DNA of 64,000 bases from Escherichia coli O127:H6 str. E2348/69 (GTDB lineage: Bacteria > Pseudomonadota > Gammaproteobacteria > Enterobacterales > Enterobacteriaceae). The stretch lies in assembly GCF_000026545.1 (NCBI RefSeq), contig NC_011601.1. The stretch is one strand, 5' to 3'. The stretch's first letter is position 1; each line of letters opens with the position of its first letter. Of the stretch, positions 54,501 through 57,500 are shown in pieces. The position numbers are program-made.

Positions 54501-57500
54501 GACCATAAAAATGATTATCATGTCCGGCGTAAATGCCGCCACTTTTTACCCCGCTGACTCGTGCGCACATAGCAGCCCAGCGATCCGGTTCGATAACGTG
54601 ATAGAGCCATAATCCTTGCCGTTGCTCCGGGCCAAAAGGTTCGCAAATTCGCATATGACGCAGAGGAACGCCTGCCTGATACATTATATTATACAGTGGG
54701 TTACAGAGCTGTTGATGGTTAGCATACCAGGTCCAGATATCAGCCACTCTCCAGTCGTAGATGGGGTAAATGTACCAGCTATGACCGCCTGGTGCGGCGG
54801 TGGTCCAGGGCTTATCATCGGCAAAACGTTGTTTATTTAAACTGGCGATGGCGACAAAACGGTTGTAGGACTCATCTGCACGGATGCCGATCATCATCGC
54901 CGCCGGACGCTTTTGCGAAAACCATTCGGCAAACTCACGCACAAATTGTTCGAAGGTCATACCAGGCTGGTAAAAGGAGAAAAAGTCAGGATCGGTTATC
55001 GCATCTTGCGGGGGCTGACGCACCCATTCGACATCAGGTTCCCAGCACTGCCATTCGGGTTGGTATTGAGAAAGGGAATTTTGCGTCGTAAGCGGGAGCG
55101 CAACCCAGTAAAACTCTTCGATGACATCGGCGTAAAACTCACGTAATGACTGAACATAGTTAATAGTGCATGAGAACTGCGCTTCCCAGTCGATAAACAA
55201 AACGCAGATTTTTTTGCCCATTTGTCGGGCAATTTCGGCTGTCAGATGCAGCATTAATCCGGAATCTTTACCACCCGAAAAAGAAACACAGATACGGGGT
55301 AGGGTATTAAGTGTCCAGGTAATACGTTCTTTTGCAGCTTCCAGAATATTCAGTGGAAGCGGGATTTTATAAATAGACATCTAAAAACGCTCTCTGAACG
55401 TTACGGGGTGATTCGTGAGATGAATCCGCTAATTATAGGATAAACGAAGCAAGATAGAGCACATTATTTTATATTCACACAATGAATTAATTGATGCGTA
55501 ATATATTATTTGTCAGTGGTAATGAATCAGAAGCTATCATTTAAACGATCTATGAATCGGGAGAAGACAAGGTTGTTCAACGAAGCCTTGTTATAGGAAA
55601 TATAAAGTTTAACCGCAGGAAGAGATTGTTCCAGTTTTATTTCTTTTAACTTCAAAAAGTCACGATGTAAATCGTACAGTTCGGTGGGCACAATGCCTAA
55701 TAAGTCAGTAACAGAAATACTATTAATTATAGTCATCAAAGAAGAACTGCGAAATGAAACTTTACGGTTCATAAAACGTTCATCTATGTCCATTTGAATT
55801 TCGTCAATCCCTGCTGATTTAGATATCAACAGGGTGAATTCTTCGGCGATAATTTGTTCATAGTTACTGGTATCAGTAATACGAGGATGTTTGTTGCTAC
55901 ATATAAGGGAATTGCGAATAGTGTGTAACGGCATGCAGATGACAGAGCGACTAATTACTGGTTGCAGCGTAATTGCCAGGTCAGTTTTGCGTTGAACCAA
56001 CAGTTCTTCGGCATTTTCAGCTGAAAGCAGGATGTCATGGCATTCTATATCGATTGAAGTATCTTGTCTAAGACAGCGGATTAGCATGTTGTTATTAGTA
56101 CAAGAAATAAGCTGAGGACCGTAGATAATAAAATTTTTCTTTAGTTCAGACTTATTAACGATATTGATCGTTTGTTCAAGGCCTCTGAGATTTTTCTCAA
56201 GATGGTGATGCAGGTTTAACCCTGTTGTAGTCGGCGCGATACCTTTCCCTGAGCGAATGAATAACGGGTCATTAAATTGCGCACGTAAACGTTGTAACGA
56301 CTGACTAACAGCAGAGGGCGTTATATATAATGATTCTGCCGCTTTACTAATGCTGAGATGTTGATAAATACATTCAAATATGACCAGTAAATTGAGGTCA
56401 AATTTTTTTAGATCATAAAGATTAGCCATAACATACTCCGCTGTATTGTCTCTTCCATAAATCATTCACTTGATCAATAATGTTGTTGTATTTATATGTA
56501 TTATGTTTTTCTGCTTAACTTTGGATTAAGATTTTCTAAAATAGCATAGCTGTCAGGTGGGTTACGAGCAATTCATGCGTTTTAAAGATGGTTGAAAAGC
56601 AGAGAGAGATTTCAACCATCGATGAATTATATTCTATTTATTCCCCATAATGATATTAAGTGTTTTCTGATCGGGTAATCCGACGGCTTGTTGCAGGGTA
56701 TTTTCCTTACTCATGTAATAGATAGCTGGTGTGACATTTGCCCCCAGATCGTCCATGAGTTTCTCGTTGTCGCTTAACACTTTCATTTGCTCTGTACTTA
56801 CGTTTGCAGGCACGCTTAGCTTAAGCTTGCCACCAGAGGCTTCATATTGTTGCCAGGTTTTTGCGGGATCTTTGGAGGCAAGAATTGCCGCTGCTGTCGC
56901 CGGGCTTTCTGGCTTGATAACCCCAACCAACAATGTTCTCAATTGCACTTTGCCAGAATCTACCCACGGACGAGCCTGCTGCCAGAACTGTTTACAATAT
57001 GGGCAGAACGGATCGGCGAAGACGTAGACAATGACCGGCGCGTCTTTTTTACCGTCGAGGAGCCAGTGGGATTGTTCCATCCGTTGCCACATTTCACGTC
57101 CGGCGGGTGCGTAAATTTCTTTTTCGATAAGTGTGTTACTCAGGTTTTCACCTTTTTCGTTGTACATGTAACCAGAGATAGCGTGCTTACCATCTGGAGT
57201 CAGGTAGATGGTGACGCCCATATCCTGATACTTACCGAGATAACCTTTCATTCCTCCAGGGGCATCGAACGTTTTGATGATTGTAATACCCTGTTTTTCA
57301 ATCGCTTTTACTGGGGCAGGAAGTTCCTCTGCGAAGGCGATTGCAGGAAGCAGGGCCAGTAAAAGTATCTTTTTTAACATTAATTTGTCCTTTTCAGTCA
57401 GTGCAAAAGTCGAGTAAAAGGCATAACCTATCACTGTCATAGGTAAGAGCTTAGATCAGGTGATTGCCCTTTGTTTATGAGGGTGTTGTAATCCATGTCG

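What the first reader, a model, noticed from the sequence alone, without database searches (positions are those of the whole stretch)
55381..56633. ybdO lies in a strongly AT-rich block with long AT-rich flanks
The LysR-type gene ybdO and both intergenic flanks (146 bp and 204 bp) are visibly more AT-rich than the neighbouring dsbG and ybdN genes, a pattern typical of horizontally acquired, H-NS-silenced regulators. Its proximity to the ybdMN module suggests ybdO may be their dedicated regulator.
Basis: inference. Interest (0 to 1): 0.25.

Follow-up and report, generated by a model that had tools for sequence, protein, structure and literature searches.

The report
AT-rich, H-NS-silenced citR (ybdO) regulator gene
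The AT-rich block is real and holds citR (ybdO), a regulator gene already shown to be silenced by H-NS and to repress the neighbouring ybdNM genes; the added point is that E. coli carries two versions of this block about 20% apart, whose family tree conflicts with that of the flanking genes.

Summary
The window is E. coli O127:H6 E2348/69. Region 55381-56633 has 35.9% GC against a window mean of 51.9%, the lowest of any 1253-bp stretch.

The gene is citR (ybdO), a LysR-type repressor. Both interpretations are already published. H-NS binds and represses ybdO, including the B2-type allele found here (Higashi 2016; Fan 2022). CitR binds its own promoter, and its deletion de-represses ybdNM and citCDEF (Rodionova 2022). 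"Dedicated" is too narrow. "Horizontally acquired" needs qualifying. The order ahpC-(dsbG)-citR-ybdN-ybdM-ybdL is conserved in more than 12 enterobacterial genera. citR is 5-14 GC points below its flanks in every one, and no mobility signatures are present.

My added finding is that the AT-rich block coincides with a ~1.3-kb island of extreme divergence within the species. Among 5426 genomes there are two allele classes about 20% apart (dS ~2, dN/dS 0.03) and almost no intermediates. Within each class, divergence equals that of the flanks. The core tree conflicts with the flank tree at 100% bootstrap. That fits allele replacement or an ancient polymorphism better than H-NS-driven acceleration in place.

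The finding as given is already known. Interest is low to moderate.

The parts
55527..56429 (-). citR (ybdO) CDS, 300 aa, LysR-type repressor. The HTH domain is residues 12-70 and the effector-binding domain is residues 137-298.
   Evidence: RefSeq annotation. Pfam HTH_1 and LysR_substrate. NCBIfam CitR equivalog NF047710 scores 455 bits against a cutoff of 400. The N-terminus MANLYDLKKFDLNLL is conserved in all genera examined, which supports the ATG at 56429 rather than the ATG of the 312-aa ORF at 56465.
56430..56633 (-). dsbG-citR spacer (204 bp, about 31% GC) holding the citR promoter and leader
   Evidence: It is 22-25% diverged between the two allele classes.
56538..56546 (-). Extended -10 element TGCTATTTT of the citR promoter. 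The transcription start maps to about 56531-56532.
   Evidence: The published TSS lies 107 bp (K-12) or 106 bp (SE15) upstream of the ATG (PMC4720273). I transferred it to window coordinates through alignment A1 and the sequence read. The CTATTTTAG core is conserved across Escherichia, Citrobacter and Salmonella. The generic -35/-10 scan misses it.
56601..56675 (-). Upstream regulatory element (URE) needed for H-NS repression, at K-12 positions -250 to -176. It overlaps the dsbG stop codon.
   Evidence: Coordinates from PMC4720273, mapped through alignment A1. A one-mismatch match to the H-NS motif lies at 56619-56628.
56587..56620 (-). Perfect 11-bp inverted repeat GATGGTTGAAA / TTTCAACCATC just after the dsbG stop codon. 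It is probably the dsbG terminator hairpin.
   Evidence: repeat I2. The stem is conserved between K-12 and E2348/69 and keeps compensatory changes in E. marmotae and E. albertii (GGATAAC...GTTATCC). The terminator role is inferred.
56266..56403 (-). Downstream regulatory element (DRE) for H-NS repression, inside codons 9-55 (+27 to +164)
   Evidence: PMC4720273. The CDS has no indels, so the mapping is direct. A one-mismatch H-NS motif match lies at 56269-56278.
56191..56266 (-). H-NS-independent negative element reported for the B2 strain SE15 (+164 to +239)
   Evidence: PMC4720273. SE15 carries the same allele class as this window.
56514..56530 (-). Perfect dyad CTTAA-N7-TTAAG (a T-N11-A type box) at +2 to +18 of the citR transcript. 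It is a candidate operator.
   Evidence: It is the only perfect match in the 64 kb. The TTAAG half-site is conserved across genera. Its function is inferred.
56464..56478 (-). Dyad ATTGA-N5-TGAAT in the citR leader. It is a candidate CitR operator for autoregulation.
   Evidence: The motif ATT[C/G]A-N5-TGAAT gives 4 strand matches at 3 sites in the window against 0.41 expected, and two of the three sites flank citR. The motif recurs at the corresponding positions in Klebsiella, Raoultella, Citrobacter and other Escherichia. CitR binding is inferred.
55473..55487 (-). Perfect dyad ATTCA-N5-TGAAT upstream of ybdN. It is a candidate CitR operator for ybdNM.
   Evidence: It is conserved in a spacer that is otherwise 30% diverged between allele classes.
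55432..55437 (-). Consensus TATAAT, the likely -10 element of a ybdNM promoter
   Evidence: It is conserved in all Escherichia alleles. The promoter role is inferred.
55381..55526 (-). citR-ybdN spacer (146 bp, 33.6% GC)
53558..55380 (-). ybdN (54160-55380; PAPS-reductase domain plus DUF3440) and ybdM (53558-54187; ParB-N-like, IbrB-like). This is the operon CitR represses.
   Evidence: Regulation is from PMC9068703.
55350..56680 (.). Island of extreme divergence between allele classes I and II (19-31% in 150-bp windows). It coincides with the AT-rich block. A dip to 8-11% at 56100-56350 covers the HTH-coding part.

Best explanation
The block is the citR (ybdO) locus. It encodes a LysR-type repressor and has been kept AT-rich at a fixed chromosomal position throughout the Enterobacteriaceae. 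It is not a recently inserted island.

Mechanism. The first two steps are published; I only mapped them to window coordinates. (1) H-NS nucleates on the AT-rich DNA at an upstream element (about 56601-56675) and a downstream element inside the first ~55 codons (56266-56403). This silences a weak extended -10 promoter that starts transcription at about 56531-56532. Repression relaxes in stationary phase and at acid pH. (2) CitR protein then feeds back on its own promoter, represses the co-directional ybdNM operon and acts on distal targets such as citCDEF. Step (3) is my inference: CitR acts through the conserved dyads ATT[C/G]A-N5-TGAAT in its own leader and upstream of ybdN.

Evolution, shown here. 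The ~1.3-kb AT-rich block exists in E. coli as discrete allele lineages. Class I includes this window and is found in at least B2 strains. Class II is found in K-12 (A), W (B1) and O157 (E). A rarer class III also exists. Classes I and II are about 20% apart, while the flanks differ by 1-5%. Within a class the block evolves no faster than its flanks, and the block's tree contradicts the flank tree. The diversity is therefore best explained by replacement of the whole block through homologous recombination in the conserved flanks, or by long retention of ancient alleles. Faster substitution in place does not explain it.
For: Identity: 100% match to E2348/69 with citR annotated, and CitR equivalog at 455 bits against a 400-bit cutoff.

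Composition.

H-NS and CitR regulation: PMC4720273, PMC9141747 and PMC9068703.

Ancient synteny: ahpC-(dsbG)-citR-ybdN-ybdM-ybdL in Citrobacter, Salmonella, Enterobacter, Klebsiella, Raoultella, Kluyvera, Lelliottia and others. citR GC is 0.05-0.14 below the flanks in each.

Dimorphism: with the E2348/69 CDS as query, 1771 genomes are at >=95%, 5 at 90-95%, 66 at 80-90% and 3503 at 60-80%. With the K-12 CDS as query, 3560 are at >=95%, 0 at 90-95% and 1712 at 60-80%.

Substitution rates, E2348/69 against K-12: citR dS ~2.0, dN 0.067, dN/dS 0.034. Flanking genes have dS 0.08-0.17.

Within-class citR divergence is 0-4%, the same as the flanks.

Discordance: in the core, clades (class I + L040) and (class II + L053) each have 100% bootstrap. 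In both flanks the clade (I + II + L053) has 100% and (I + L040) has 0%. The four-point sums computed cannot be fitted to the flank tree by any variation in rate.

A recombinant strain, L045, has a class I coding sequence joined to a class II-like promoter, with the breakpoint near 56500.

Operator candidates.
Against: No H-NS or CitR binding data exist for E2348/69 itself. The evidence is transferred from SE15 and RS218 (same allele class and/or phylogroup) and from K-12.

The operator assignments are purely comparative. The sequence of the published predicted site could not be read.

The direction of allele replacement is unresolved. Continuity of the class I-to-L040 distance across the block boundaries suggests class II is the import. 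A roughly 2-fold core/flank rate ratio taken from deeper comparisons instead makes class II look vertically inherited and class I introgressed.

No donor lineage for any class was found.

Phylogroup membership was inferred from a few named strains, not typed genome-wide.

The trees are NJ trees on p/JC distances with synonymous sites near saturation.
Confidence: 0.8

Rival explanations
1. Recent horizontal gene gain. ybdO, with or without ybdMN, would be a foreign island inserted between dsbG and ybdL in the E. coli lineage, and it would still be AT-rich because it has not had time to drift toward the host's composition.
For: Strong AT-richness and low GC3. H-NS binding. The literature labels ybdO a horizontally transferred gene. 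CitR is much less conserved than its neighbours between genera (47-62% against 72-99% amino-acid identity).
Against: The gene occupies the same position in more than 12 genera. The GC deficit is present in all of them and tracks host GC (0.38 in hosts near 50% GC, 0.43-0.47 in hosts at 55-57% GC). That looks like a maintained offset rather than foreign DNA that has not yet converged on host composition. There is no integrase, tRNA, IS or direct-repeat boundary at the block. 5345-5348 of 5426 E. coli genomes carry it.
Confidence: 0.05
2. Accelerated substitution in place (the reading of Higashi et al. 2016). H-NS silencing would relax constraint or raise the substitution rate, so the block simply accumulates changes faster than its flanks along the clonal tree.
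For: [quoted passage not shown] CitR is the fastest-diverging protein of the locus in every between-genus comparison. Divergence shoulders extend into ybdN and dsbG.
Against: Within-class divergence of citR equals that of the flanks: K-12 against EDL933 is 1.2% for citR and 1.3-1.7% for the flanks, and E. whittamii against E10V10 is 5.6% and 5.2-6.6%. The core/flank divergence ratio ranges from 0.9 to 9 between pairs, so there is no uniform clock. The identity distribution is bimodal with an empty 90-95% band. The core topology contradicts the flank topology at 100% bootstrap. dN/dS of 0.034 shows strong purifying selection, not relaxed constraint.
Confidence: 0.12
3. Ancient balanced polymorphism. 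The allele classes would be old variants of one locus kept within Escherichia populations by selection, for example for different effector specificity of the CitR C-terminal domain or different promoter behaviour. Recombination would erode linkage in the flanks.
For: Divergence peaks over the block and decays through shoulders into ybdN (54600-55350) and dsbG (56600-56750). All 35 amino-acid differences lie in residues 111-300, while residues 1-110 are identical. Both classes are common, at about 33% and 66% of genomes. L040 (a separate GTDB species representative) and the E. coli-labelled class III genomes (L053, L059, L060) carry related alleles. Published assays show the promoter alleles behave differently.
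Against: The classes appear to follow deep phylogroup structure rather than segregating freely within phylogroups, although this rests on a few named strains. dN/dS gives no sign of diversifying selection. No phenotype difference between the protein alleles has been tested.
Confidence: 0.25

Closest known systems
citR/ybdO of E. coli K-12, SE11, SE15 and K1 RS218 (Higashi 2016 PMC4720273; Rodionova 2022 PMC9068703; Fan 2022 PMC9141747)
   Same: It is the same gene at the same position. H-NS silences it through URE and DRE elements, it is autoregulated, and it represses ybdNM. The window carries the SE15-type (class I) allele.
   Different: The K-12 and SE11 allele is about 20% different in DNA and 11.6% in protein. 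All protein changes lie in the effector-binding domain. The published account attributes this difference to faster substitution, whereas the analysis here indicates discrete allele lineages with a discordant tree.
leuO, a LysR-type regulator gene silenced by H-NS
   Same: It is a LysR-family regulator encoded in AT-rich DNA and kept off by H-NS under laboratory conditions. LeuO is the third-best NCBIfam match to CitR.
   Different: CitR scores only 101 bits against the LeuO model, whose cutoff is 262, so it is not a LeuO orthologue. An H-NS-antagonist role for CitR has not been shown.
bgl and proU silencing by H-NS through upstream and downstream regulatory elements
   Same: Two H-NS-dependent elements flank the promoter, and one lies inside the coding region. 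Higashi et al. draw this comparison themselves.
   Different: This locus encodes a regulator rather than a catabolic or transport operon. Bridging between the URE and DRE at citR is proposed but not demonstrated.
Divergent allele cassettes exchanged through conserved flanks in E. coli. I recall loci next to rfb/gnd and the promoter polymorphism of the H-NS-repressed mat/ecp operon in B2 strains; only the latter appears in a source read here.
   Same: A short segment carries far more divergence than the clonal frame, the flanks are conserved, and the allele classes track phylogroups.
   Different: The variable segment here is a cytoplasmic regulator under strong purifying selection, not a surface structure. 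No donor is known.

Membership tests
LysR-type transcriptional regulators (LTTR) | N-terminal winged HTH domain (Pfam HTH_1, PF00126) | tested here: met
   Residues 12-70, E 7.6e-19, 67.9 bits against a cutoff of 26.6.
LysR-type transcriptional regulators (LTTR) | C-terminal LysR substrate-binding domain (PF03466) in a protein of about 300 aa | tested here: met
   Residues 137-298, 39.7 bits against a cutoff of 28. The protein is 300 aa.
LysR-type transcriptional regulators (LTTR) | Interrupted-dyad operator of T-N11-A type at regulated promoters | tested here: inconclusive
   Conserved dyads occur at 56464-56478, 55473-55487 and 56514-56530. Binding was not tested.
CitR (NCBIfam NF047710 equivalog) | Whole-protein score above the curated cutoff | tested here: met
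   455.4 bits against a cutoff of 400. The next family, YbeF, scores 168 bits against a cutoff of 277.
CitR (NCBIfam NF047710 equivalog) | Conserved genomic context between ahpC/dsbG and ybdNM/ybdL | tested here: met
H-NS-silenced (xenogeneically silenced) gene | AT content well above the genome average | tested here: met
   35.9% GC against 51.9%, the lowest in the window.
H-NS-silenced (xenogeneically silenced) gene | H-NS occupancy and de-repression in an hns mutant | not testable with these tools
   Published for K-12, SE11, SE15 and RS218. The SE15 allele matches the window's allele. One-mismatch H-NS motif matches fall in the mapped URE and DRE, which is weak evidence.
Horizontally acquired genomic island | Patchy distribution or absence from the syntenic site in related genera | tested here: not met
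   Present at the same site in all 38 loci from other genera that were recovered.
Horizontally acquired genomic island | Mobility signatures at the boundaries (tRNA, integrase, IS, direct repeats) | tested here: not met
   None are annotated or found.
Horizontally acquired genomic island | Gene tree discordant with the tree of the flanking or core genes | tested here: met
   Met only at the allele level within Escherichia.
Dedicated local regulator of ybdNM | Strict co-occurrence of the regulator with its target operon | tested here: not met
   L021, L022, L037, L038 and L039 keep citR without ybdNM.
Dedicated local regulator of ybdNM | Target expression responds to the regulator, and the regulon is limited to the neighbouring genes | not testable with these tools
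   ybdNM are up-regulated in a citR deletion. However, 86 genes are differentially expressed, including citCDEF, and other direct targets have been reported.

The most novel reading that the evidence does not exclude
The AT-rich citR block would be a replaceable cassette. Escherichia lineages carry deeply diverged versions (classes I, II and III in E. coli, plus a further type in E. whittamii, E. albertii and E. marmotae). These versions have been swapped between lineages by recombination in the conserved dsbG and ybdN flanks, or kept as an ancient polymorphism. If so, the textbook example used to argue that H-NS accelerates substitution would instead be a case of allele import. The high diversity of H-NS-bound core genes in general may then partly reflect tolerated import of divergent, silenced alleles. 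The two protein classes differ only in the effector-binding domain, so they may respond to different signals. That could help explain why YbdO is reported to promote virulence in one strain and attenuate it in another.
Probability: 0.55. Interest if true: 0.45.

Novelty: already known. Interest (0 to 1): 0.3.

Why it matters
The finding as given matters little. The AT-richness, the H-NS silencing and the control of ybdNM are all in the literature, and NCBI already names the gene citR.

The part worth keeping is the correction to how the locus is described. First, it is not a recent foreign insertion. It is an anciently resident, persistently AT-rich gene, which bears on the habit of equating low GC plus H-NS binding with horizontal acquisition. 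Second, its exceptional diversity within E. coli comes from discrete allele lineages with a discordant tree, not from a faster clock. Third, strains used for YbdO functional work carry different alleles: K-12 has class II and SE15 class I, while RS218 (K1) was not typed here. Results may therefore not transfer between them.

Tried and rejected
1. A whole-locus alignment against the K-12 locus fetched by accession failed, because that locus was not exported to the script machine. I used DNA alignment pieces and hit-derived loci instead.

2. The generic sigma-70 promoter and terminator scan found nothing meaningful: 5 promoter-like sites against 6.8 expected, and no terminators. The real promoter has an extended -10 and a poor -35.

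3. Rfam found no RNA family inside the block. The only match there was a chance hit to sau-63 at E 0.87.

4. PADLOC gave only weak PAPS-reductase-domain matches for YbdN (DndC 21 bits, BrxP 18 bits) and nothing for CitR. I make no claim that ybdNM is a defence system.

5. H-NS motif matches are only mildly enriched: 4 of 26 one-mismatch hits fall in 2% of the window. That is expected from AT-richness alone.

I recovered E. albertii, E. marmotae, E. whittamii and class III through a protein search and contig look-ups. L054 is a noisy assembly and I ignored it.

7. I tested whether any AT-rich gene shows the same dimorphism, using wzz(fepE) (41% GC) as a control. It shows only 1-10% divergence and no class 20% apart, so the effect is not a general property of low GC.

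8. I considered a rate-only explanation on the species tree and rejected it. It would require a negative branch length (distances).

9. The published predicted CitR site could not be compared, because the supplement shows it only as a highlighted image.
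Full report
**What the window is, and the observation.** The 4.2 kb around the finding is 100% identical to E. 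coli O127:H6 E2348/69, an EPEC strain of phylogroup B2 (phylogroup from my own knowledge). There the genes are annotated ybdL, ybdM, ybdN, citR, dsbG. Its CDS is 55527-56429 on the minus strand (300 aa). GC of 55381-56633 is 0.359. The mean for 1253-bp windows is 0.519 (sd 0.046). It is the lowest such window in the 64 kb, and only 0.19% of windows are as low, all overlapping the block. ybdN, ybdM and dsbG are at 0.46-0.47. GC3 is 0.36 for citR against 0.47-0.61 for the neighbours. By the 300-bp profile the low-GC block runs from about 55250 to 56700.

**What the gene is.** The protein has a LysR HTH domain (residues 12-70) and a LysR substrate-binding domain (residues 137-298). It passes the curated NCBIfam equivalog model for CitR at 455 bits against a cutoff of 400. 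The next matches, YbeF and LeuO, fall far below their cutoffs. YbdN has a PAPS-reductase domain plus DUF3440, and YbdM has a weak ParB-N match. PADLOC gives nothing convincing for any of the three proteins.

**What is already published.**
- Higashi et al. 2016 (PMC4720273) mapped H-NS by ChAP-seq in K-12, SE11 and SE15 and used ybdO as their worked example. H-NS covers the upstream and coding regions in all three strains, and ybdO-lac fusions are de-repressed in an hns mutant.
- They found that repression needs an upstream element (-250 to -176) and a downstream element (+27 to +164). The start site is 107 or 106 bp upstream of the ATG. H-NS-independent negative elements lie in the coding region.
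- Their SE15-specific RACE primer matches this window's sequence exactly, and the SE11 primer matches K-12. The H-NS data therefore cover the allele present here.
- Fan et al. 2022 (PMC9141747) showed direct H-NS binding to the ybdO promoter in K1 strain RS218, relief of repression at acid pH, and activation of kpsM by YbdO.
- Rodionova et al. 2022 (PMC9068703) found a YbdO ChIP-exo peak at its own promoter. Deleting the gene strongly up-regulated ybdNM and citCDEF, and they renamed it CitR.
- A 2024 APEC study reports repression of ahpCF, fepG and other genes.

**Anatomy in window coordinates.** I mapped the published elements through the E2348/69-K-12 alignment and the sequence read.
- The extended -10 element TGCTATTTT is at 56546-56538, with the transcription start at about 56531-56532.
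- The URE is at 56601-56675. It overlaps the dsbG stop codon and a perfect 11-bp hairpin at 56587-56620 that looks like the dsbG terminator.
- The DRE is at 56266-56403, and the SE15 negative element is at 56191-56266.
- One-mismatch matches to the H-NS motif TCGWTWAATT fall at 56619 (in the URE), 56269 (in the DRE), 55539 and 55485. Enrichment is modest and expected from AT-richness.

**Candidate operators (inferred).** I aligned the two spacers across genera.
- A dyad ATT[C/G]A-N5-TGAAT lies in the citR leader (56464-56478) and upstream of ybdN (55473-55487). In the second case it sits 35 nt before a conserved TATAAT at 55437-55432.
- The motif gives 4 strand matches at 3 sites in the window against 0.41 expected. 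Two of the three sites flank citR.
- It recurs at the equivalent positions in Klebsiella, Raoultella, Citrobacter and all Escherichia alleles.
- A second perfect dyad, CTTAA-N7-TTAAG, lies at +2 to +18 of the transcript (56514-56530). It is unique in the window, and its TTAAG half-site is conserved across genera.
- The first 110 residues of CitR are identical between allele classes, and its first ~25 residues are nearly identical across genera. Conserved operators are therefore expected. Binding itself was not tested.

**Is it horizontally acquired?** Not as a gene gain.
- A scan of species-representative genomes recovered the order ahpC-(dsbG)-citR-ybdN-ybdM-ybdL in Citrobacter, Salmonella, Enterobacter, Lelliottia, Klebsiella, Raoultella, Kluyvera, Pseudocitrobacter, Superficieibacter, Pluralibacter and others.
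- In every genus citR is 0.05-0.14 lower in GC than its own flanks. The value tracks host GC: about 0.38 in Escherichia, Salmonella and Citrobacter, and 0.43-0.47 in most Klebsiella, Enterobacter and related genera.
- No tRNA, integrase, IS or direct repeat bounds the block.

The AT-rich dip is therefore older than these genera and is maintained. It is not foreign DNA that has yet to converge on host composition. Two Leclercia, Raoultella terrigena, an unnamed Enterobacteriaceae MAG and Pseudescherichia ESNIH1 keep citR but lack ybdNM. Together with the distal targets, this argues against a dedicated ybdNM regulator.

**The unexpected part: a divergence island.**
- The citR block of E2348/69 is only about 78-80% identical to that of K-12, O157 and most other E. 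coli, while ybdL next door is 95-99% identical.
- Across 5426 complete genomes the distribution is bimodal. With the E2348/69 CDS as query, 1771 genomes are at >=95%, 5 at 90-95%, 66 at 80-90% and 3503 at 60-80%. With the K-12 CDS as query, 3560 are at >=95%, none at 90-95%, 76 at 80-90% and 1712 at 60-80%.
- Between E2348/69 and K-12, citR has pS 0.70 (dS ~2), dN 0.067 and dN/dS 0.034. The corresponding dS values are 0.17 for dsbG, 0.17 for ybdL, 0.08 for ybdM and 0.13 for the 3' part of ybdN.
- All 35 amino-acid differences lie in residues 111-300.
- In 150-bp windows, divergence jumps from 0.11-0.16 to 0.31 at about 55350-55400. It stays at 0.19-0.31 up to about 56550 and falls to 0.04 by 56750. 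There is a dip to 0.08-0.11 over the HTH-coding part, and shoulders extend into ybdN and dsbG.
- The island therefore coincides with the AT-rich block.

**Faster clock or different alleles?** Within a class the block is no more diverged than the flanks. Class I (E2348/69, ST131 and two others) differs by 0.9-4.1% in citR, and class II (K-12, W, EDL933 and two others) by 0-2.5%. Flank divergence is 0-4.7%.

I then added other lineages:
- L040, a separate GTDB species representative labelled E. coli.
- Class III (proteins P0012/P0135; loci L053, L059, L060), which is labelled E. coli.
- E. whittamii.
- Escherichia sp. E10V10.
- E. marmotae.
- E. albertii.

L040 differs from all E. coli by about 10% in the left flank and 5% in the right flank. 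In the core it differs by 13% from class I but by 24% from class II. Class III is 14% from class II and 24% from class I.

NJ bootstraps give (I + L040) at 100% and (II + L053) at 100% in the core. In both flanks, (I + II + L053) is at 100% and (I + L040) at 0%. The four-point sums are 0.272, 0.468 and 0.480. These identify the split {I, L040} | {II, L053} with an internal branch of about 0.10. Forcing the flank tree onto these distances would need a negative branch.

The core/flank divergence ratio runs from 0.9 (K-12 against EDL933; E. whittamii against E10V10) to about 9 (class I against class II). Strain L045 is a visible recombinant, with a class I coding sequence and a class II-like sequence upstream of about 56500. 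An AT-rich control gene in the same window, wzz(fepE) at 41% GC, shows no class about 20% apart.

Higashi et al. tested recombination only globally and treated the ybdO differences as substitutions. I found no paper describing the dimorphism.

**Reading of the evolution.** A uniformly faster clock does not fit. The block has been replaced as a unit by recombination in the conserved flanks, or it is an old polymorphism, or both. The direction is unresolved. The class I-to-L040 distance shows no step at the block boundaries, and class II occurs in K-12 (A), W (B1) and O157 (E), which favours a single import of class II (strain phylogroups from my own knowledge). Against that, scaling by the roughly 2-fold core/flank ratio seen for E. 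albertii and E. marmotae makes class II look vertically inherited and class I introgressed. No donor closer than 89% protein identity was found for class II. The decaying shoulders and the commonness of both classes are also compatible with long-term balanced alleles.

**Comparison, novelty and verdict.** The locus is citR/ybdO itself and is a member of the LTTR and CitR families, with the defining features tested and met. It works like other H-NS-silenced promoters with URE and DRE elements, such as bgl and proU, and it resembles leuO in being an H-NS-silenced LysR-type gene. It fails the tests for a recently acquired island. The finding as written is already known, so its interest is low. 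The allele-lineage result is a modest new observation about a known locus. It corrects the "horizontally transferred gene" label and the "accelerated diversification" interpretation, and it warns that functional results from K-12 (class II) and from class I strains such as SE15 concern proteins that differ at 35 positions in the effector-binding domain.

**Dead ends.** One fetched locus was not available to scripts. The consensus promoter and terminator scan, the Rfam search of the block and PADLOC were uninformative. One contig was too noisy to use. The published predicted operator could not be read from the supplement.

Noticed in passing
window 57514-57607 (+): The Rfam family STnc70 (an enterobacterial sRNA) matches in the dsbG-ahpC spacer at 44.1 bits, above its gathering score of 40.
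   Followed up: no
window 37321-38454: wzz(fepE) is annotated as a pseudogene with an internal stop in E2348/69. Its allele is >=99% identical in only 3 records, and every other E. coli genome is 90-96% identical. GC is about 0.41.
   Followed up: partly
window 3914-7573: A tRNA-Arg gene is followed by integrase and tail-fibre gene fragments, a SAM methyltransferase and ompT. This is a prophage remnant, and it forms the second-lowest GC stretch of the window at about 0.40.
   Followed up: no
window ~60601-60723: ybdR, which lies between uspG and yldA in K-12 (1.24 kb), is absent from E2348/69. Only 123 bp separate uspG and yldA here.
   Followed up: no
other E. coli genomes: H51, H63, H80, H81; locus L052 3600-3872: citR is interrupted by IS1 in several genomes. 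In strain DLI.5a it is truncated by an ISEcp1-blaCTX-M-14 insertion. The gene is therefore repeatedly inactivated in nature.
   Followed up: no
loci L021, L022, L037, L038, L039: Two Leclercia, Raoultella terrigena, an unnamed Enterobacteriaceae MAG and Pseudescherichia ESNIH1 keep citR between ahpC/dsbG and ybdL but have no ybdN or ybdM.
   Followed up: partly
locus L045 (strain MSB1_7C), equivalent to window ~56500-56650: This strain is a natural recombinant. It has a class I citR coding sequence joined to a class II-like promoter and URE: that stretch is 3% from K-12 and 19% from E2348/69.
   Followed up: partly
loci L044, L053, L059: ybdM is frameshifted in L044. ybdN is split into two ORFs in L053 and is not called in L059 (both class III strains). 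The ybdNM module therefore decays in some strains.
   Followed up: no
loci L057, L058 against L056: E. whittamii and Escherichia sp. E10V10 are 5-6.5% from E. coli in the flanks but 30% in the citR core. Their core is closer to E. albertii (20%). This is a second discordance at the same locus, deeper in the genus.
   Followed up: partly
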